Shown here: positions 9,300 through 48,677 of the stretch, piece by piece
Numbering within the stretch: the stretch's first letter is position 1
Layout of the letters: every line of letters begins with the position of its first letter
IMG/VR virus record: IMGVR_UViG_3300020003_000061
Coordinates: 1-52,812 of that record
From: a virus
Taxonomy: Duplodnaviria > Caudoviricetes
DNA length: 52,812 bases
Strand: one strand, 5' to 3'
Made by a program: the position numbers and the translations under genes
Notes under the pieces: generated by a model
Seen by the model: the letters and a program-made list of their open reading frames with translations, nothing else
Databases searched by the model: none
What the model was told of the DNA's origin: nothing

Positions 9300-9465
9300 A
9301 CTCGAGAAAGAATTCGTGAAGGAAGGACAGGCGAAGACTGGATCACCAAGCATCATCAAGGAGTGTATCTACTTCGCCCGGCTCCTTAGCAAGACACCGC
9401 AGGAAGTCTTCGAGATTCGTCAAGGCATCAGCGCTGACGTGAACGAGGAGTATCCTTCGCTGTGA
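9289..9465 (+). CDS. Small hypothetical protein (58 aa, not in the ORF track)
   Basis: TTG start after AGGAAGG; fills the gap and overlaps the polymerase start (GTGA). Confidence 0.5.
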   Translation: MLSELEKEFVKEGQAKTGSPSIIKECIYFARLLSKTPQEVFEIRQGISADVNEEYPSL

Positions 9466-11249
9466 ACATAGGCACGGTACGAGTCCCCAACGAGGGTCCG
9501 AAGAATGCTCGAATCTATCTCGTTGGTGAGGGACCAGGTGCAGATGAGGTCGATCTCGGGAGGCCGTTTGTTGGTGTCTCGGGTCTTAAACTTAGAAATT
9601 GCCTTGGACGCAACGGAATTGGCGAGGATACCGCACGATTCTGCAATCTGGTCCAGTACCGTCCGCCTAATAACAAGTTCGAAGCAGTCCTCCGTACTCG
9701 TGAGCTGGCTGCCGGAATCGAAGAGCTTGCTTCTGACATTAGAGAGTTTCGTCCTAATGTCATCGCCGCGCTTGGAAATTGGCCCCTCTATTATCTCACT
9801 GGTCGAAGAGGCAAAAAGGCACCTGGCACAGGTATTGGAAAGTGGAGAGGATCAATTCTCCCTTGCATTCTCCCAGGATGTGAAGGAGTAAAGGTCGTTG
9901 CCTCATATCATCCGGCATTCATTGTCAGACAACCCACTGCGTATCCAATCTTCGATACAGATATTAGAAGAGTCGTACATGATAGCACTTTTCCTGAGCT
10001 ACGTTACCCGAAAAGAAACTTGGTTCTCAACCCTGTGGGTGCTCTACTTGAGGAGTGGACGGAACGTCTTTGTAGCGCTGAATACCTTGCCGTTGACATT
10101 GAAACTGTTAAACGCACAGCACACATCCTCTGTGTCGGATTCAGCCCGGACCCTCTCACATCTGTTGTCATTGCACATTCGAGTTCAGATTTTGCTAGGA
10201 CAGAAGCTATTGACCGAATACTGAGAAGCTCGGTCAAGAAAGTGTTCCATAACGGAGGTACGTTCGACATTCCTATCCTGGAGATAAACGATTTTTATGT
10301 TGAGAATTATTTCTGGGATACAATGGTGGGACAGCATGTTATGTGGGCTGAGTTACCGAAGTCTCTTGATTATTTGGGTAGCGTCCATACTCGGCAGCCT
10401 TACTACAAGACTGCTGGGCGCGCGGAGATCCCGGATGATGCGAAAGGTTGGAGTGAGAAATTCGATAGAAATGCTCTGTATGAATACAATGGGACTGATA
10501 CTGGTGTTACTGCTGAAGTGTATCTGGCCCAGCTAGAGGACTTCCGACAAGGACCACCAGCATGGCAGCGCACGTTCGACTTCGAGATGAGTGAATTCGT
10601 GGTAGCCGCCACGATCAGTCGCACTGGAATGATGGTAGATCTGAAGCGTCGGGAGACTCTCAAGCGTGCACTCCAAGCTAAGTGGGCCATCATCCAGTTT
10701 GTTCTCAACAACCTTGTTAAGCTTAGAGTTAATGTCAACTCGCCGAAGCAGATGCGAGCCCTACTCTACGACAAGGATAAACTGGGACTCCCTCCACGAA
10801 AAGACCACGAAGGCAACCTTACTACAGACGAGGATGCCATCGTATCTCTCATTGCTTTTACCAAGGATAAACTTTCCAAGCTGAAGCCCGGCGGCAATGC
10901 AAACGCTTTCTGGCAACTTCGGATTGATGCACTCAGTTCTATACTTCTCATACGCGGTATACGAAAGCTCCTCTCGTCCTACATCAATATCAGAATATCT
11001 GATGATGGACGTATTAGAGCTACTTATAAGCCTGTCGGTCCCGAGACCGGGCGTTGGGCTTGTGCCGTATACTACGATGGTACAGGGTGTAATGCGCAAA
11101 CATTTCCTCGTGAGGTGTTTGAGCTTAAAAATTACGAGGATGACCCGGTCTTGAGAGAGATGCTGCCATACATTCTCGAGTCGGAAGCTGAAGATGTGGG
11201 TATCGAGATTGATGAAGCTGTGGAAACGGAAGAAGCGGTAGCGATATGA
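9462..11249 (+). CDS. polA: DNA polymerase family A, N-terminal part: family-4 uracil-DNA glycosylase + 3'-5' exonuclease + thumb
   Basis: GEGPG..E...GRPFVG.SG and YHPA (UDG); AVDIET, FHNG.FD, YNGTD (Exo I-III); NVNSPKQ, TDEDA, ETGRW, NAQTFPR. Confidence 0.9.
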   Translation: MNIGTVRVPNEGPKNARIYLVGEGPGADEVDLGRPFVGVSGLKLRNCLGRNGIGEDTARFCNLVQYRPPNNKFEAVLRTRELAAGIEELASDIREFRPNVIAALGNWPLYYLTGRRGKKAPGTGIGKWRGSILPCILPGCEGVKVVASYHPAFIVRQPTAYPIFDTDIRRVVHDSTFPELRYPKRNLVLNPVGALLEEWTERLCSAEYLAVDIETVKRTAHILCVGFSPDPLTSVVIAHSSSDFARTEAIDRILRSSVKKVFHNGGTFDIPILEINDFYVENYFWDTMVGQHVMWAELPKSLDYLGSVHTRQPYYKTAGRAEIPDDAKGWSEKFDRNALYEYNGTDTGVTAEVYLAQLEDFRQGPPAWQRTFDFEMSEFVVAATISRTGMMVDLKRRETLKRALQAKWAIIQFVLNNLVKLRVNVNSPKQMRALLYDKDKLGLPPRKDHEGNLTTDEDAIVSLIAFTKDKLSKLKPGGNANAFWQLRIDALSSILLIRGIRKLLSSYINIRISDDGRIRATYKPVGPETGRWACAVYYDGTGCNAQTFPREVFELKNYEDDPVLREMLPYILESEAEDVGIEIDEAVETEEAVAI

Positions 11250-11518
11250 GCGTATACGTTGACGATATGTATGCGCCCTTCGGCAACATGCTCATGTGTC
11301 ATATGGTTGCTGACACTAAAGAAGAGCTGCTCGCGATGGTAGACAAGATCGGAGTGCAGCGAAAGTGGATTCAGAAAGAGGGAACGACAGGAGAACATTT
11401 TGACATCGCCAAATCCAAGCGTGCGCTTGCAGTGAAAGCTGGCGCAATCGAAATCACTTGGGCAGAGTGTGGGAGAAGAGAACTGGCGTTGCGTAGAGGT
11501 GAGAAATGGGAACGGTAG
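11246..11518 (+). CDS. DUF4031 family protein inserted between the polymerase halves
   Basis: MSVYVDD...MCHMVADT.EEL..M...IGV.RKW.Q....HFD....RALAV..GA. Confidence 0.85.
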   Translation: MSVYVDDMYAPFGNMLMCHMVADTKEELLAMVDKIGVQRKWIQKEGTTGEHFDIAKSKRALAVKAGAIEITWAECGRRELALRRGEKWER

Positions 11519-12405
11519 TCCGCACCCCGTCTCACGAGAAAAAGAATCCGCAGATTCCTATACGGAGCATGATTATATGCCCGGAGGACTGCTATCTCGT
11601 CAACTTCGACTTGGCTCAAGCCGAGAGTTGGTTAGTTGCGTATCTCGCGAACGAATACACGATGAAACACGTACTGGCTACCGGAGACTTTCACCGGGAG
11701 ACAGGACAGAAAGCGTTGTTCAAGGAGTCTGATGAGCACTGGGAGTTAGCGCCGAAGGAAGAAAGGAAGACAAAGCGATATGTCGGAAAGAGATATAATC
11801 ACGCAACGGCATATCGAATGGGTCCTCAGCGAGCTTGCGAAGTTATTAACAAAGACTCTGACAAGCCGCCCTTTGTTACGGTTACTCATGCAGAGTCGAA
11901 AGTCTTTTACAAGTCGTGGCACGACTACTACAATATTCAGGGTTGGTGGAATGAGATTGAGTATCAACTTAACGAGACGAGGACTCTCCGCACACCTTAT
12001 GATCGTATCAGATATTTCTTCGCCCCCTGGGGACCAGAGCTTTTCAGAGAAGCAACCGCCTACGTCCCCCAGTCAACCGTAGCAGATCACATGGACGGTG
12101 CAATCCAAGAGGGTGTGAATGGTCCTGGAGGTGTGATCGAAGTACACAGGCAATTCGTCAAGACTGGGATGATTCGCATTATCAATCAGTCACACGATTC
12201 AATCTTGTGCGAGATTCCCCGCACATCATGCTTGACAATTTGCGAACAAATAGTTAAATTGCTTCTTCGCCCGTTGGTCGTCAACGACGAGGAGTTCACG
12301 ATTCCTGTGGATTGTGAGATTGGTTTCAGGTGGGGAGAACTCCACGAGCAACTTCGCCCGATGGGATCATACGAAATCGAGTACGAACTTCCCGAGGCAG
12401 CGTAA
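11506..12405 (+). CDS. polA: DNA polymerase family A, C-terminal catalytic part
   Basis: Motif A FDLAQAE, DFH, motif B R..GKRYNHATAY.MG, PQSTVAD, motif C QSHDSIL, IPVD...G.RWG. Confidence 0.9.
   Translation: MGTVVRTPSHEKKNPQIPIRSMIICPEDCYLVNFDLAQAESWLVAYLANEYTMKHVLATGDFHRETGQKALFKESDEHWELAPKEERKTKRYVGKRYNHATAYRMGPQRACEVINKDSDKPPFVTVTHAESKVFYKSWHDYYNIQGWWNEIEYQLNETRTLRTPYDRIRYFFAPWGPELFREATAYVPQSTVADHMDGAIQEGVNGPGGVIEVHRQFVKTGMIRIINQSHDSILCEIPRTSCLTICEQIVKLLLRPLVVNDEEFTIPVDCEIGFRWGELHEQLRPMGSYEIEYELPEAA
12232..12260 (+). promoter_or_regulatory. Possible internal sigma70 promoter
   Basis: TTGACA-17 nt-TAAATT within the 3' part of polA. Confidence 0.4.
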
Positions 12406-29977: not shown

Positions 29978-30762
29978 TACGGGTTCCCTATACGAACATG
30001 CTTCTGCCTTATAAACGTCAGCGCAGTATCAGCTTCACTAGTCATCCCGACGGCTACGAGCAGCTCACCGCCTCCTACACCTATCGGAAGCGCAGAGTCT
30101 GTTTCTGACGCAAAACCGAGATTGACACGCTTCTGACTGCTAAACGCAAAGGCTGTGTCAGTCTCACTTGCTATTCCAGTTGGAGTACCACCAGTTCCAA
30201 CCGTTATATCAAATGCTGAGTCAGCTTCAGACGCCTGCCCTACTGTTTTTTCCTTTCGTACTGTGAGCGCCTGCGCTGAGTCCGTCTCGAGCGCGAGGCC
30301 AAATGCTGTTGACTTCGACTTTCCGGCTGCTTGTGCCGAATCTGTTTCACTCGCGAGTCCAACGGCCACTTGCTTTCTAACCGCGAACGCCAGTGCTGTG
30401 TCAGTTTCACTTGACTGACCAACAGCTCTCGGTTCTTGCGCCGAGATTGATTGTGCTGTGTCGCTCTCCGATGCTTGTCCAATCGCCTTGAACTTCTGAC
30501 TCGTTAGTCCTTGTGCTGAGTCGTTTTCTTCTGCGATACCGATTTCAACAAACAGAACGTTCGGTGGTGTTTCTTCAGCTCCAAGTTGAAGTGGCGCATC
30601 AATCGCCGCGATTAACTCATCTATCGGTGCGACCTGCGTCATTCCACCGAGCGGCGTCATACCATGATGTATGAAACCTGCCGTATTGATGTTACTGCCG
30701 ATCGCTCCAGCCCCTACAAGCTGGAGACAATAAGTGTTAGCAGCAGTCCGGTATACGCTCAC
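29977..30762 (-). CDS. Repeat-rich fibre-like protein
   Basis: About nine GxAxE(T/S/A/N)D(S/T)A repeats at roughly 20-aa spacing. Confidence 0.75.
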   Translation of the reverse strand: MSVYRTAANTYCLQLVGAGAIGSNINTAGFIHHGMTPLGGMTQVAPIDELIAAIDAPLQLGAEETPPNVLFVEIGIAEENDSAQGLTSQKFKAIGQASESDTAQSISAQEPRAVGQSSETDTALAFAVRKQVAVGLASETDSAQAAGKSKSTAFGLALETDSAQALTVRKEKTVGQASEADSAFDITVGTGGTPTGIASETDTAFAFSSQKRVNLGFASETDSALPIGVGGGELLVAVGMTSEADTALTFIRQKHVRIGNP

Positions 30763-43459: not shown

Positions 43460-43575
43460 GCGAGTGCTCACTCACCTCAGCGTTGCGCGAGTGAGTGCTC
43501 ACGGTTGCACCGCCACGCCACGAGGGTGAGTACTCACAACCACTACCGTGGGGGTGGGCGTGAGTGAGCACTCAT
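43460..43575. repeat. Four GTGAG-NN-CTCAC palindromes
   Basis: Copies at 43460, 43491, 43526 and 43564. Confidence 0.85.
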
Positions 43576-43697: not shown

Positions 43698-43765
43698 TGG
43701 CACGAGGGTTGCTCTATGAGGAGCCGTGACCGGGGCGCCACCTCCCACCTGGCACGGAGGTTGCT
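43698..43765 (+). promoter_or_regulatory. Tandem sigma54 (-24/-12) promoters
   Basis: TGGCACG-AGGG-TTGCT at 43698 and TGGCACG-GAGG-TTGCT at 43750, both followed by CTATGAGG. Confidence 0.75.
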
Positions 43766-43820: not shown

Positions 43821-44111
43821 GTGGCTCACGCAATTGGTTGCATTGGCTCATCGCAAGATGGGCGGACCAAGACGCGCCCGGCCATGACCAAGGAGCAACG
43901 CAAGCGCAATACTTCGCTTGTGCCTCGCAAGGTGCGGAACCAGACTCGTGCAATCGGTTTCATTCTGGTCAGCCGTGACGGCGAGAAGCCCAAGGTCCGA
44001 GCAATCCGGGCGGGACACGGACGGCACTACCAGCAAGCGCTCATGTTTGCTGAGGTGGAGATTATGAAAGATTCCGAGGGCAAGCCCCTCACGGTCAAGC
44101 GGCCGAAATAG
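43821..44111 (+). CDS. First early gene, small basic protein
   Basis: GAGGGGG RBS before GTG43821; alternative start ATG43884. Confidence 0.6.
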   Translation: MAHAIGCIGSSQDGRTKTRPAMTKEQRKRNTSLVPRKVRNQTRAIGFILVSRDGEKPKVRAIRAGHGRHYQQALMFAEVEIMKDSEGKPLTVKRPK

Positions 44112-44115
44112 GGAC

Positions 44116-44144
44116 TTGACACGGACGCCACGAGCCGCTATTAT
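44116..44144 (+). promoter_or_regulatory. Sigma70 promoter overlapping the tRNA-like element
   Basis: TTGACA-17 nt-TATTAT. Confidence 0.65.
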
Positions 44145-44194
44145 AGGGTAGAGGCACGGCAACGTGTCGGGAGGTTCGAATCCTCCTCGTGGCA
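44127..44194 (+). ncRNA. Anticodon-less tRNA-like RNA
   Basis: 7-bp acceptor GCCACGA/TCGTGGC plus A discriminator; T-arm GGAGG-TTCGAAT-CCTCC; GGCACG-GCAA-CGTGTC hairpin. Confidence 0.7.
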
Positions 44195-44223
44195 TTGGTG
44201 AGGTGAATGCGTGAGTTTCCATC

Positions 44224-44391
44224 TTTTCCACGCATCCATGTGGATGGACGGGGGTGACCCCTTTCCCCCCGGACACCTCAGTACTCTCTATAAAAATAAT
44301 ATATATAGAGAATAACTGAGGAGCGTGAGAGGGAAGGGGTGGGGTAGGGCCATCCACATGGATGGATGGAAGAAATGTAAACTTATCCACG
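44224..44391. repeat. Large imperfect inverted repeat with AT-rich apex; candidate replication origin
   Basis: Nested arms CATCCATGTGGATGG/CCATCCACATGGATG, ACCCCTT/AAGGGGT, CCTCAGT/ACTGAGG, TCTCTATA/TATAGAGA. Confidence 0.7.
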
Positions 44392-47469: not shown

Positions 47470-47472
47470 ATC

Positions 47473-47676
47473 ATGGCGAGCCGGGGGAGGTCACCAACAG
47501 TAGCCCTGCGTGAATATGCCGAGGGCTACTCAGGTTACCAGGCGTTGCTCGAAGGCACCACGTCGCCTGGGACCACGAAGTATTACGCTTGCCTGAAATA
47601 TGGGCCGCGTAAGTCCCGTTGGATGGCGCAGGAGTGGTTGGAGAATCAGTTAAGGAAGCGTCGTCGGAGGAACTGA
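47473..47676 (+). CDS. Hypothetical basic protein
   Basis: 67 aa ORF directly after the previous stop. Confidence 0.5.
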   Translation: MASRGRSPTVALREYAEGYSGYQALLEGTTSPGTTKYYACLKYGPRKSRWMAQEWLENQLRKRRRRN

Positions 47677-47996
47677 CGCTGAAAGATCGGGAAAGGCGAT
47701 AGCTGGGGATCGTCACCGTATACTCCAGCCGACTGGCTAGGTCGCTGCGCAACCAGCGTAAAGGTGCCACGACGCCTTTCCTACGCCACTCTCGACGCTG
47801 AGGCTTGGCCCTCCCCAAGCACTTGGAAACTGAAGCAAGGTTACGGCCATCTCCTTGCAGAGGTTAGTCGGGTTCGATTCCCGCCAGCGTCTCTGGGCAG
47901 ACAGCGAAGAACCTGTGAAACGTGGGCAGTCAGGGTTGATCCTACTCAGGATAGCACCCGTCCCATAAACGTGGAGAATGGAGCGCTGTTCTGCCC
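47675..47996 (+). ncRNA. Cluster of structured RNA domains, including a non-canonical tRNA-like element at 47794-47892
   Basis: GACGCTG/CAGCGTC acceptor-like stem with CGGG-TTCGATT-CCCG T-arm; flanking closed domains. Confidence 0.6.
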
Positions 47997-48045
47997 TTTG
48001 CTTTGCAGTTCCCCGTAGTACCTCACTCTTAGGCGGAGGTTCTAT

Positions 48046-48171
48046 ATGATGCGCTCGACCAGGGTTCCCCTCTGGTTGCTGCTTCTCGCTCTGTATCTGC
48101 CGTTCTGGGTTCGAGTCTGCACCCGGATCGGCTCGATGTGGGGCGGGCGCGGCGGACTGACGTGGGCCTGA
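48046..48171 (+). CDS. Small membrane peptide (41 aa, not in the ORF track)
   Basis: GGAGG RBS; MMRSTRVPLWLLLLALYLPFWVRV. Confidence 0.5.
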   Translation: MMRSTRVPLWLLLLALYLPFWVRVCTRIGSMWGGRGGLTWA

Positions 48172-48214
48172 TGGACTGGATCATCGAGGCCCTCCTCCCC
48201 TGGCGCAGGAAGCG

Positions 48215-48511
48215 GTGGCCGGGCTGGTGAGGTACTTCGCCATCTTTGACACAGATGGCCCGCTGTTCGAGCTGACGCAAGACCAGCGTACCGAGATGTT
48301 GCGTGAGGTTATTGCTAAGGAACCCAGCATCGTCCGGTACGCTGTCGTCAGATCAGGGCTGGGCAAGGAGCCGTCGTTTCACACTGATTTCTGGACGGTG
48401 GATCATCAGACGTTGTTCCTACTTCGCTTGATGATGCAGCTCACAAAAGAGTTTCACCAAGATGGCAACGGACCTGAACCAGGATCAGTAGATGAAGATA
48501 GAGTTTCGTAA
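48215..48511 (+). CDS. Hypothetical protein
   Basis: AGGAAG RBS, GTG start. Confidence 0.55.
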   Translation: MAGLVRYFAIFDTDGPLFELTQDQRTEMLREVIAKEPSIVRYAVVRSGLGKEPSFHTDFWTVDHQTLFLLRLMMQLTKEFHQDGNGPEPGSVDEDRVS

Positions 48512-48677
48512 GGTCAGTCGCGCAGGCAACAACGTGACCTGCCAGGTGTTCTTCGATGGCATCATCGTTGCACCGCAGCTTCACTGCACTCCCAAGGAGT
48601 ATGAGGCACTCCTCACCACGCTCAAGAAGGACCACGAGGTAATCAGCATGATCGAGGTCAGTTCCAGCGAGGCTTGA
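48492..48677 (+). CDS. Hypothetical protein
   Basis: 61 aa; its stop codon lies within the next promoter's -35 box. Confidence 0.6.
   Translation: MKIEFRKVSRAGNNVTCQVFFDGIIVAPQLHCTPKEYEALLTTLKKDHEVISMIEVSSSEA

What the first reader, a model, noticed from the sequence alone, without database searches (positions are those of the whole stretch)
44116..44194. 68-nt anticodon-less tRNA mimic with a sigma70 promoter embedded in it
Seen: a 7-bp acceptor stem GCCACGA (44127-33)/TCGTGGC (44187-93), discriminator A44194, and a perfect T-arm GGAGG-TTCGAAT-CCTCC. There is a D-loop-like GGGTAGA segment. In place of the anticodon and variable arms there is a single 6-bp GCAA-capped hairpin. No CCA is encoded. 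The same bases carry TTGACA-N17-TATTAT, whose transcript would lack the 5' acceptor strand, so the full fold can only arise from upstream (sigma54-type) transcription. Known: a GCC start, A73, GGTAGA and a tetraloop-capped long arm resemble bacterial tRNA-Leu, and bacterial LeuRS largely ignores the anticodon. Inference: a non-decoding tRNA mimic that could be an RNase P/Z processing signal, an amino-acid carrier, or a decoy for tRNA-targeting defences. It has no anticodon loop for a nuclease to cut.
Basis: partly seen in the sequence, partly recalled or inferred. Interest (0 to 1): 0.82.

Follow-up and report, generated by a model that had tools for sequence, protein, structure and literature searches.

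The report
Anticodon-less tRNA mimic in a phage
An uncultured soil phage carries a small gene for an RNA shaped like the top of a tRNA but with no anticodon, and related phages preserve its fold, so it is a real non-decoding tRNA look-alike of a kind seen before in phages such as T5, with no shown function.

Summary
ARAGORN and Rfam do not call the element a tRNA.

It is not a chance fold or a one-off deletion. Two relatives carry a homologous element at the same spot: phage record G001 (84 nt) and metagenome contig L072 (129 nt). All three have different acceptor stems that still pair. Five of 7 acceptor pairs changed on both sides, and 95.7% of 69 pair cells are paired. None of the three has an anticodon loop. 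The site where the anticodon arm should be holds 0, 13 or about 55 nt.

The TTGACA-N17-TATTAT promoter belongs to the phage's own promoter set. G001 keeps it and L072 lacks it, so it overlies the RNA gene in one lineage only. Two perfect sigma54 motifs lie upstream.

Best reading: a substrate of tRNA-processing enzymes, cut out of the upstream transcript. It would act like plant-mitochondrial t-elements and resemble phage T5 RNA1. No function is shown.

The scan has noted similar anticodon-less phage tRNA mimics on other DNA. I class it as a new variant of a known kind, of moderate interest.

The parts
44127..44194 (+). tRNA-like RNA element, 68 nt, with no anticodon arm
   Evidence: Sequence. 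Fold z = -4.55. Homologs in G001 and L072 with covarying stems. Model R1 scores 86.9 bits on it, but R1 was built from it.
44127..44133 (+). 5' strand of the acceptor stem. It lies inside the spacer of the sigma70 promoter.
   Evidence: Five of 7 acceptor pairs changed on both sides among 3 sequences.
44134..44152 (+). D-region analogue GCCGCTATTATAGGGTAGA, with G at position 8 and a GG for the elbow. It contains the -10 hexamer.
   Evidence: Fifteen of its 19 positions are identical in all 3 homologs. The other four are the variable block TTAT / ATAT / GCAC; its second and fourth positions differ only in L072.
44153..44168 (+). 6-bp hairpin with a GCAA tetraloop, placed like the long variable arm of a class II tRNA, 1 nt before the T stem
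   Evidence: Kept in G001 (7 bp, GTAA loop, closing pair flipped) and in L072.
44170..44186 (+). T arm GGAGG-TTCGAAT-CCTCC
   Evidence: The first pair is G-C in the window and C-G in L072.
44187..44194 (+). 3' strand of the acceptor stem plus discriminator A. TTGG follows and no CCA is encoded.
   Evidence: A followed by TTGG is found in all three homologs.
44116..44144 (+). sigma70-type promoter TTGACA-N17-TATTAT. The predicted start at about 44150-44152 is inferred.
   Evidence: G001 has TTGACA-N18-TAATAT at the same place. L072 has none.
43698..43765 (+). Two tandem exact sigma54-type motifs (43698-43713 and 43750-43765) upstream of the small gene and the element
   Evidence: the only 0-mismatch matches in the window. 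The motif is conserved in G001, L036/L073 and L072.
43821..44111 (+). Conserved gene for a 96-aa basic protein. Its stop codon ends 15 nt before the element.
   Evidence: GTG start preceded by GAGGGGG. Eighteen homologs, 10 of them called at 96 aa. Alignment.
44212..44386 (.). Large imperfect palindrome with an AT-rich centre and CCATCCACATGGATGG sites, directly downstream of the element

Best explanation
The element is a selectively maintained, tRNA-derived RNA. It keeps what tRNA-processing enzymes read: a 7-bp acceptor stem stacked on a 5-bp T arm, a canonical T loop, a D-loop GG for the elbow, and discriminator A. It also keeps a variable-arm-like hairpin. It has lost the anticodon arm, so it cannot decode.

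Proposed mechanism:
1. The full element is transcribed as the tail of the upstream 96-aa gene, probably from the two sigma54-type promoters.
2. RNase P then cuts in front of G44127, just behind the gene's stop codon.
3. A 3' nuclease of the RNase Z type cuts behind A44194.
4. The transcript is thereby punctuated, and a stable RNA of about 68 nt is released (71 nt if CCA is added).

This works like plant-mitochondrial t-elements. It looks like the 'tRNA-like stable RNA' RNA1 of phage T5.

In the window's lineage a sigma70 promoter has been laid over the 5' third of the element. RNA started there (about 44150-52) lacks the 5' acceptor strand and cannot be processed at this site. It begins instead with two hairpins.

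Shown: the structure, its conservation and covariation, the promoter motifs and the gene order. Inferred: transcription, every cleavage, CCA addition and stability.
For: Structure under selection:
- Three homologs share the D region but have three different acceptor stems: GCCACGA/TCGTGGC, GACGCGA/TCACGTC and GAGGCAC/GTGCCTC.
- 95.7% of 69 pair cells are paired, and 7 of 23 pairs changed on both sides.
- None of 500 shuffles reaches these values, and slid controls give 0-3 such pairs.

Freedom where processing enzymes do not look:
- The anticodon-arm site holds 0 nt in the window.
- It holds a 13-nt tandem duplication in G001.
- It holds about 55 nt with a 16-nt loop in L072.

Position:
- The element begins 15 nt after the stop codon in the window.
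- It begins 5 nt after the stop in L072, and 8 nt after a 49-codon ORF in G001.

Other points:
- A followed by TTGG is kept in all three homologs.
- Exact sigma54 motifs lie upstream in the window, G001 and L072.
- Precedents: the abstract of PMC1920247 describes t-elements as RNase Z/P signals. The T5 record annotates RNA1 as a 'tRNA-like stable RNA with unknown functions', and RNA1 folds with a Leu-type D loop, an inserted module, a hairpin and a T arm.
- None of the 30 ORFs tested is an integrase or a tRNA enzyme.
Against: - No RNA data exist. No listed run that holds the stretch is on record as RNA.
- There are only three homologs, so the statistics are thin. The structure was also derived from these same sequences, which favours it over the slid controls.
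- G001 has one C.A mismatch in the acceptor stem. Its T stem needs a 2-nt bulge or an 8/4 register. Its fold is not better than shuffles (z = -1.36, 21 of 200).
- Position 8 is G in all three, not the U of canonical tRNAs (recalled rule).
- Two related lineages have the palindrome without the element (L036/L073 and L062/L070), so it is dispensable.
- The conserved variable-arm-like hairpin is more than a bare cutting signal would need.
- In the window alone the composite pattern arises by chance in 14 of 200 shuffles.
Confidence: 0.5

Rival explanations
1. The released RNA is itself the product and acts in trans as a tRNA mimic. It could be charged by host LeuRS as a non-decoding leucine carrier. 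It could instead be a decoy that titrates host factors or defence toxins that read the acceptor end or the elbow of tRNAs. Processing would be the same as in the best explanation; only the purpose differs.
For: - A73, the T-loop U54/A58 positions, a D-loop GG and GGTAGA are the features the review lists as sufficient for charging E. coli tRNA-Leu variants that lack the anticodon and variable arms (PMC9976931 passages).
- The variable-arm-like hairpin is conserved with a flipped closing pair, which a pure cutting signal would not need.
- The same phages carry a second irregular tRNA-like family and a tRNA-Tyr. This is typical of accessory tRNA cargo.
- Search listings and abstracts report that phage tRNAs counter tRNA-targeting defences (PMC11464382, PMC11555353, PMC10264068).
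Against: - There are no charging, stability or binding data.
- G8 and the enlarged D region depart from real tRNA-Leu.
- The published phage tRNAs rescue decoding, which this RNA cannot do.
- The identity rules quoted are for E. coli, and the host here is unknown.
- The sigma70 overlay would make a truncated, useless mimic from that promoter.
Confidence: 0.25
2. It is a decaying phage tRNA gene, a pseudogene that lost its anticodon arm. It has no function of its own and survives only because the promoter now sits in it.
For: - A relative lineage has an anticodon-bearing, tRNA-shaped gene at the same spot.
- Relatives have a tRNA-Tyr that the window lacks.
- Two lineages lack the element altogether.
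- The -10 hexamer lies in the conserved D region.
Against: - Twenty of 21 acceptor cells pair although 5 of 7 pairs changed on both sides, in flanks that are only about 70% identical. Neutral decay would break the stem.
- L072 keeps the element and its D region without any promoter, so the promoter does not explain the conservation.
- All three homologs lack an anticodon loop, so the loss is old and the fold was kept afterwards.
Confidence: 0.08
3. The working unit is DNA: a promoter plus the downstream AT-centred palindrome, for example a transcription-activated replication origin. On this view the tRNA shape is incidental.
For: - A promoter directly upstream of the palindrome is seen in the window, in G001 and, without any tRNA-like element, in L062/L070.
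- The palindrome carries sites that are themselves palindromic and occur nowhere else in the window.
- It shows no consistent strand bias in folding energy.
Against: - This does not explain compensatory changes between a strand in the promoter spacer and a strand 60 nt downstream.
- It does not explain the canonical T loop.
- It does not explain the element in L072, which has no promoter.
- Both readings can be true side by side.
Confidence: 0.07
4. It is a phage attachment site copied from the 3' part of a host tRNA gene.
For: Many phages integrate into tRNA genes and carry the tRNA's 3' part (recalled knowledge).
Against: - No integrase was found among the 30 ORFs tested, and the gene set looks lytic: DNA polymerase, primase, helicase, exonuclease.
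- The 5' acceptor strand is present and covaries.
- The 25-nt 3' end has no exact match in the viral collection.
- The one bacterial-genome scan, anchored on the flanking palindrome motif, returned nothing related.
Confidence: 0.02

Closest known systems
Phage T5 RNA1, annotated in record AY543070 as 'tRNA-like stable RNA with unknown functions' (30501-30644)
   Same: - It is a phage-encoded tRNA-shaped RNA beside real tRNA genes.
- It has a Leu-type D loop (AAUUGGUAGA in T5, AUAGGGUAGA here).
- It has a canonical T arm and a hairpin just before the T arm.
- The MFE fold shows a folded module, not an anticodon stem-loop, at the anticodon position, as in the 129-nt L072 homolog.
   Different: - No sequence relationship can be shown. 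Model R1 scores 15.3 bits on it, in the range it gives T5's ordinary tRNAs (9.8-14.8 bits).
- The window's form has nothing at all at the anticodon position.
- The window's form is not in a tRNA cluster.
- The window's form carries a promoter inside it.
t-elements of plant mitochondria (Forner et al. 2007, PMC1920247; abstract read)
   Same: They are tRNA-like structures next to mRNA ends, taken to be cis-signals for RNase Z and/or RNase P. Here the element starts 5-15 nt behind a stop codon.
   Different: The systems are unrelated and no homology is implied. Cleavage is mapped there and not here. This element keeps an elbow and a variable-arm-like hairpin.
Minimal E. coli tRNA-Leu variants without anticodon and variable arms (review PMC9976931, passages read)
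   Same: A73 and D/T-loop contacts with no anticodon arm are reported to be enough for leucylation.
   Different: Those are laboratory constructs. This is a natural gene with G8 and an enlarged D region, in an unknown host. Charging is untested.
Phage T4 RNAC and RNAD (PMC3014915 and PMC9697503, passages read)
   Same: They are small RNAs made from a phage tRNA region with unknown roles.
   Different: That they look like tRNAs is my recollection, not shown by any search. I made no sequence comparison.
Irregular tRNAs and allo-tRNAs of soil bacteria and phages (PMC5389517, abstract and passages read)
   Same: They are non-canonical tRNA shapes from soil and sediment metagenomes and from phages. 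The G001 homolog can also be drawn with an 8/4 acceptor/T-stem split.
   Different: Allo-tRNAs have anticodon arms and decode. The window and L072 fit the normal 7/5 split.
mascRNA, gammaherpesvirus tRNA-like RNAs, the tmRNA tRNA-like domain, YrlA
   Same: They are non-decoding tRNA mimics handled by tRNA-processing enzymes (recalled).
   Different: Rfam gives only 19.9 bits for mascRNA (cut-off 42.5). It lists no tmRNA or Y-RNA-type family among 24 matches at E <= 10. ARAGORN finds no tmRNA at default settings.

Membership tests
Canonical tRNA (Rfam RF00005) | Score at or above the family cut-off of 29 bits | tested here: not met
   No match at E <= 10 in the whole record. Nothing at gathering scores.
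Canonical tRNA (Rfam RF00005) | Anticodon arm with a 5-bp stem and a 7-nt loop | tested here: not met
   Only 36 nt lie between the acceptor and T stems. The one hairpin there has a 4-nt (or 3-nt) loop. ARAGORN tRNAs.
Canonical tRNA (Rfam RF00005) | 7-bp acceptor stem, 5-bp T stem, T loop TTCRANY, GG in the D loop | tested here: met
   The stems covary.
Canonical tRNA (Rfam RF00005) | U at position 8 and a 3-4 bp D stem (recalled rule) | tested here: not met
   Position 8 is G in all 3 homologs. The D-stem pairing is not the same in all three.
Selenocysteine tRNA (RF01852) | Score at or above 47 bits | tested here: not met
   22 bits, E = 0.075 on 601 nt.
mascRNA/menRNA (RF01684) | Score at or above 42.5 bits | tested here: not met
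   19.9 bits.
tmRNA | tRNA-like domain plus a tag reading frame, detected by ARAGORN or Rfam | tested here: not met
   ARAGORN at default finds none. Rfam finds none at E <= 10. Hits with loosened ARAGORN thresholds are noise.
Phage T5 RNA1-like tRNA-shaped stable RNAs | Sequence or profile relationship to T5 RNA1 | tested here: not met
   R1 scores 15.3 bits, no better than on T5's true tRNAs.
Phage T5 RNA1-like tRNA-shaped stable RNAs | Accumulates as a stable RNA in infected cells | not testable with these tools
   No RNA holder is listed.
t-element-like processing signal | Mapped RNase P / RNase Z cuts at its borders | not testable with these tools
   Needs end mapping or enzyme assays.
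t-element-like processing signal | tRNA-like fold directly next to a gene end | tested here: met
   15, 5 and 8 nt behind a stop codon in the window, L072 and G001.
sigma70-type promoter | -35 and -10 hexamers at 16-18 nt spacing | tested here: met
   11 of 12 with spacer 17. It is one of 7 TTGACA-N15-19-TANNNT sites against 1.01 expected. G001 scores 10 of 12 with spacer 18.
sigma70-type promoter | Transcription start in vivo | not testable with these tools
   No RNA data.
tRNA-gene attachment site (attP) | An integrase in the phage and identity to a host tRNA's 3' end | tested here: inconclusive
   No integrase among the 30 ORFs tested. The host is unknown and I ran no scan of bacterial genomes with the 3' end.

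The most novel reading that the evidence does not exclude
This would be a natural minimal 'tRNA-Leu shell': the phage makes an anticodon-less class II tRNA mimic that the host LeuRS charges through A73 and the elbow. The mimic would then act outside decoding. It could carry leucine, or it could serve as a decoy for defence toxins that attack tRNA acceptor ends. The two promoters would switch production between the complete mimic (sigma54 read-through) and a 5'-truncated, inert RNA (the sigma70 start inside the gene).
Probability: 0.15. Interest if true: 0.8.

Novelty: new variant of a known kind. Interest (0 to 1): 0.5.

Why it matters
Phage genomes hold tRNA-shaped genes that tRNA finders miss and that cannot decode. 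T5 RNA1 is annotated as a stable RNA of unknown function.

This element is about the smallest form of that idea: acceptor stem, elbow, one hairpin and a T arm. Its relatives show that the anticodon position can hold nothing, 13 nt or a 55-nt module while the rest is held fixed. That makes it a compact test object for two questions: what such RNAs need in order to be recognised, and what they are for.

The overlaid promoter, with sigma54 motifs upstream, would also be an unusual case of one stretch of DNA encoding both an RNA fold and a start site that destroys that fold.

If it is only a cutting mark, it is ordinary biology in a new place.

Tried and rejected
Searches for relatives:
- GenBank phage BLAST found no match in near mode or distant mode.
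- The exact 25-nt 3' end in viral contigs gave 0 stretches.
- The D-region pattern in viral contigs found only G001.
- One search was my own slip: I used 5 N where 4 were needed. Its 11 hits are unrelated.
- The corrected pattern gave 29 stretches, of which only G001 is related.
- A protein-based locus search with the long 187-aa reading of the upstream ORF found none.
- The same search with the downstream ORF found G001 only.
- With the helicase it found 5 loci.
- The genome-contig scan with the palindrome motif gave 3 unrelated hits.
- The metagenome scan gave 22 stretches, 6 of them related: L054, L062, L070, L071, L072 and L073.

RNA and read data:
- No RNA holder is listed.
- Contigs of runs X3-X6 were laid on the region. 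X4, X5 and X6 carry a relative in which 44107-44211 is replaced by 116 other letters that the tool did not print. X3 has no cover over most of the element.

Detectors and models:
- Loosened ARAGORN thresholds gave only noise: 57 'tRNAs' at -ps80.
- The model R1 search of the whole records of G001-G004 found nothing new. L054 was not held there.

The palindrome: comparing folding energy on the two strands showed no consistent bias.

The upstream 96-aa protein:
- No Pfam or PHROG family.
- No usable Atlas hit.
- The AlphaFold model has mean pLDDT 77.3.
- Foldseek against PDB found no match at E <= 0.001. The row for an archaeal LeuRS (E = 0.51, 44 columns) is not evidence.

Other:
- The scan's notes for this genome are empty.

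Full report
WHAT THE WINDOW IS

The window is a complete IMG/VR virus record of 52,812 bp (CheckV 100%). The best DNA holders are labelled soil metagenome and may be its source.

Structural genes, including the large terminase, run on the minus strand. Replication genes run on the plus strand. These are a split family-A DNA polymerase fused to a UDG domain, a DUF3987 primase, an SNF2 helicase, a PD-(D/E)XK exonuclease, Sak4 and a ParB-methyltransferase. None of the 30 ORFs I tested is an integrase or a tRNA-handling enzyme. GenBank phages hold nothing similar.

THE OBSERVATION

- the acceptor stem at 44127-33 and 44187-93;
- discriminator A44194, followed by TTGG with no CCA;
- the T arm at 44170-86, with loop TTCGAAT;
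- GGGTAGA at 44146-52;
- a 6-bp GCAA-capped hairpin at 44153-68;
- TTGACA-N17-TATTAT at 44116-44.

The RNA folds far better than shuffles (-32.8 kcal/mol, z = -4.55, 0 of 200). ARAGORN calls no tRNA anywhere in the window. Rfam gives nothing at gathering scores. Below threshold it gives only tRNA-Sec at 22 bits and mascRNA at 19.9 bits. RF00005 gives nothing at E <= 10.

On its own the composite is not overwhelming. A T loop plus a perfect T stem plus a 7-bp acceptor stem turns up in 14 of 200 shuffled windows.

RELATIVES

I anchored on the neighbouring genes and on a motif of the downstream palindrome (CCATCCACATGGATGG, unique to that site in the window). This found five further lineages.

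1. G001, a 51,884-bp record with terminal repeats. It is about 70% identical to the window over the element and palindrome, and 73% over the upstream gene. It has an 84-nt homolog at the same spot (L003:2172-2255).
2. L072, a 1,259-bp metagenome contig. It has a 129-nt homolog (988-1116).
3. L011/L054. These have a different 76-nt tRNA-shaped gene at the same spot, which ARAGORN labels tRNA-Leu(tag).
4. L036/L073. About 60 nt separate the upstream gene from the palindrome, with no T arm.
5. L062/L070. A TTGACA promoter lies about 75 nt before the palindrome, with no tRNA-like element.

A further variant sits in three sediment runs. There 44107-44211 is replaced by 116 other letters that I could not see.

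COVARIATION

The three homologs share the D region GCCGCTA-NNNN-AGGGTAGA. They also share the T loop, discriminator A and the trailer TTGG.

Their acceptor stems are GCCACGA/TCGTGGC, GACGCGA/TCACGTC and GAGGCAC/GTGCCTC. On the alignment, 23 pairs give 95.7% paired cells. Seven pairs changed on both sides: 5 of the 7 acceptor pairs, the first T-stem pair and the closing pair of the hairpin. No shuffle out of 500 reaches these values. Sliding the partners gives 0-3 such pairs and 41-49% pairing.

Caveats:
- There are only three sequences.
- The structure was read from these same sequences.
- G001 has one C.A mismatch and needs a bulge in its T stem.
- G001's own fold is not better than shuffles.
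- L072 folds at z = -2.86.

Even so, neutral decay at about 30% divergence would not leave 20 of 21 acceptor cells paired.

THE ANTICODON POSITION

None of the three homologs has a 7-nt anticodon loop. Between the D region and the hairpin that abuts the T stem:
- the window has nothing;
- G001 has a 13-nt tandem duplication;
- L072 has about 55 nt forming a long hairpin with a 16-nt loop.

The hairpin that stays is separated from the T stem by one base. That is the position of the long variable arm of class II tRNAs (recalled rule). The family therefore looks like a class II tRNA shell whose anticodon arm is free to vanish or be replaced.

The L011/L054 gene is not a normal tRNA-Leu either. 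It has a class I shape, a weak D stem and C at position 37. It gave no Rfam hit at E <= 0.01 and scores 19.2 bits against my model. I treat it as a positional analogue of uncertain homology.

THE PROMOTERS

The window has 7 TTGACA-N15-19-TANNNT sites against 1.01 expected, and 6 of them are on the plus strand. Four share the form TTGACA-N17-(TG)TTATATT and stand in front of genes. The site inside the element scores 11 of 12.

G001 keeps it as TTGACA-N18-TAATAT. L072 has no such site in or before its element. There the four variable bases of the D region read GCAC, not TTAT or ATAT. The promoter is therefore real-looking but specific to one lineage, and it does not explain why the D region is conserved.

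Upstream, the only two exact matches to TGGCAC-N5-TTGCW in the window lie at 43698 and 43750. Matches with up to 2 mismatches are not enriched overall, at 31 against 25 expected. The exact motif recurs upstream of the same gene in G001, L036/L073 and L072. Four GTGAGYRCTCAC dyads lie 120-240 nt further upstream (6 matches in the window against 0.67 expected). This is the layout of an enhancer-dependent promoter (recalled).

The gene between these motifs and the element is best read as 43821-44111. It has a GTG start behind GAGGGGG and encodes 96 aa. Eighteen homologs were found, 10 of them called at 96 aa, and none is named. Its model matches no solved fold.

MECHANISM

The conserved parts are the acceptor/T-arm stack, the T loop, the D-loop GG and the discriminator. 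These are the parts that RNase P, RNase Z-type nucleases and the CCA-adding enzyme read (established knowledge, recalled). The part that is free to vary is the part they ignore. The element begins 5-15 nt behind a stop codon in all three phages.

I therefore think it is cut out of the sigma54-driven transcript. That would end the upstream message and release a small stable RNA. The abstract of PMC1920247 proposes the same for plant-mitochondrial t-elements.

The nearest phage precedent is T5 RNA1, annotated 'tRNA-like stable RNA with unknown functions'. Its fold shows a Leu-type D loop, an inserted module, a hairpin and a T arm. My model gives it only 15.3 bits, no more than it gives T5's real tRNAs. 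The likeness is therefore one of kind, not shown descent. T4 RNAC and RNAD are two more small RNAs from a phage tRNA region with unknown roles.

Whether the released RNA also acts in trans is open. The review PMC9976931 (passages) states that E. coli tRNA-Leu stays chargeable without anticodon and variable arms if A73 and the D/T-loop contacts remain. This element has both features. No step of transcription, cutting, CCA addition or charging is shown.

EARLIER NOTES OF THIS SCAN

The scan holds 68 notes in at least 67 genomes on anticodon-less tRNA mimics in phages. They pointed me to T5 RNA1 and to the t-element paper, and I checked both as far as the annotation and the abstract go. A note on another genome describes a similar fold-back dyad.

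VERDICT

The element is a real, conserved, non-decoding tRNA look-alike and a new variant of a known but unexplained kind. The functional readings remain hypotheses.

Noticed in passing
window 47794-47892 (+); L012:8742-8831; L011:8887-8981 (same as L010:2237-2331 and L054): A second family of irregular tRNA-shaped elements, 90-99 nt long. It has covarying 7-bp acceptor stems (GACGCTG/CAGCGTC, GACGCGA/TCGCGTC, AGCACAG/CTGTGCT), T loop TTCGATT and discriminator T. Where the anticodon loop should be there is an oversized loop holding a conserved GGCCATC. ARAGORN and Rfam do not call it.
   Followed up: partly
L009:896-981, L010:2105-2190, L011:8755-8840, L012:9028-9115; window 47470-48670: Four related records carry a tRNA-Tyr(gta) 650-1000 nt upstream of the SNF2 helicase gene. 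It scores only 24.8-29.8 bits on RF00005 and 35-38 bits on tRNA-Sec. The window has no tRNA-Tyr at all.
   Followed up: partly
window 43460-43575 and 43698-43765: Four GTGAGYRCTCAC dyads spaced 31-38 nt apart lie upstream of two tandem exact sigma54-type motifs. The sigma54 motif is conserved in three relatives. An enhancer-dependent sigma54 promoter would be unusual in a phage.
   Followed up: partly
window 44212-44386: An imperfect palindrome of about 175 bp with an AT-only centre. It is flanked by CCATCCACATGGATGG sites that are themselves dyads and occur nowhere else in the window. It is conserved in five other lineages. There is no consistent strand bias in RNA folding energy. It could be a replication origin, a protein-binding site or a long hairpin RNA. 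Its weak Rfam microRNA hits only reflect the hairpin shape.
   Followed up: partly
window 2422, 44526, 46691, 48674 (+): A family of near-identical strong promoters, TTGACA-N17-(TG)TTATATT, stands in front of plus-strand genes. The same form occurs in G001.
   Followed up: partly
window 9462-11249 and 11506-12405: The family-A DNA polymerase is split into two ORFs about 250 bp apart. The first carries an N-terminal uracil-DNA-glycosylase-superfamily domain.
   Followed up: no
L003:2198-2223: The G001 homolog carries a perfect 13-nt tandem duplication exactly where the anticodon arm would sit. It copies the 5' half and loop of the adjacent hairpin.
   Followed up: partly
window 44107-44211, in contigs of runs X4, X5 and X6: Three sediment metagenomes hold a relative with the flanks about 85-95% alike, but with 116 other letters in place of the 103 that include the element. 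It is probably one more variant of the element. The letters were not shown.
   Followed up: no
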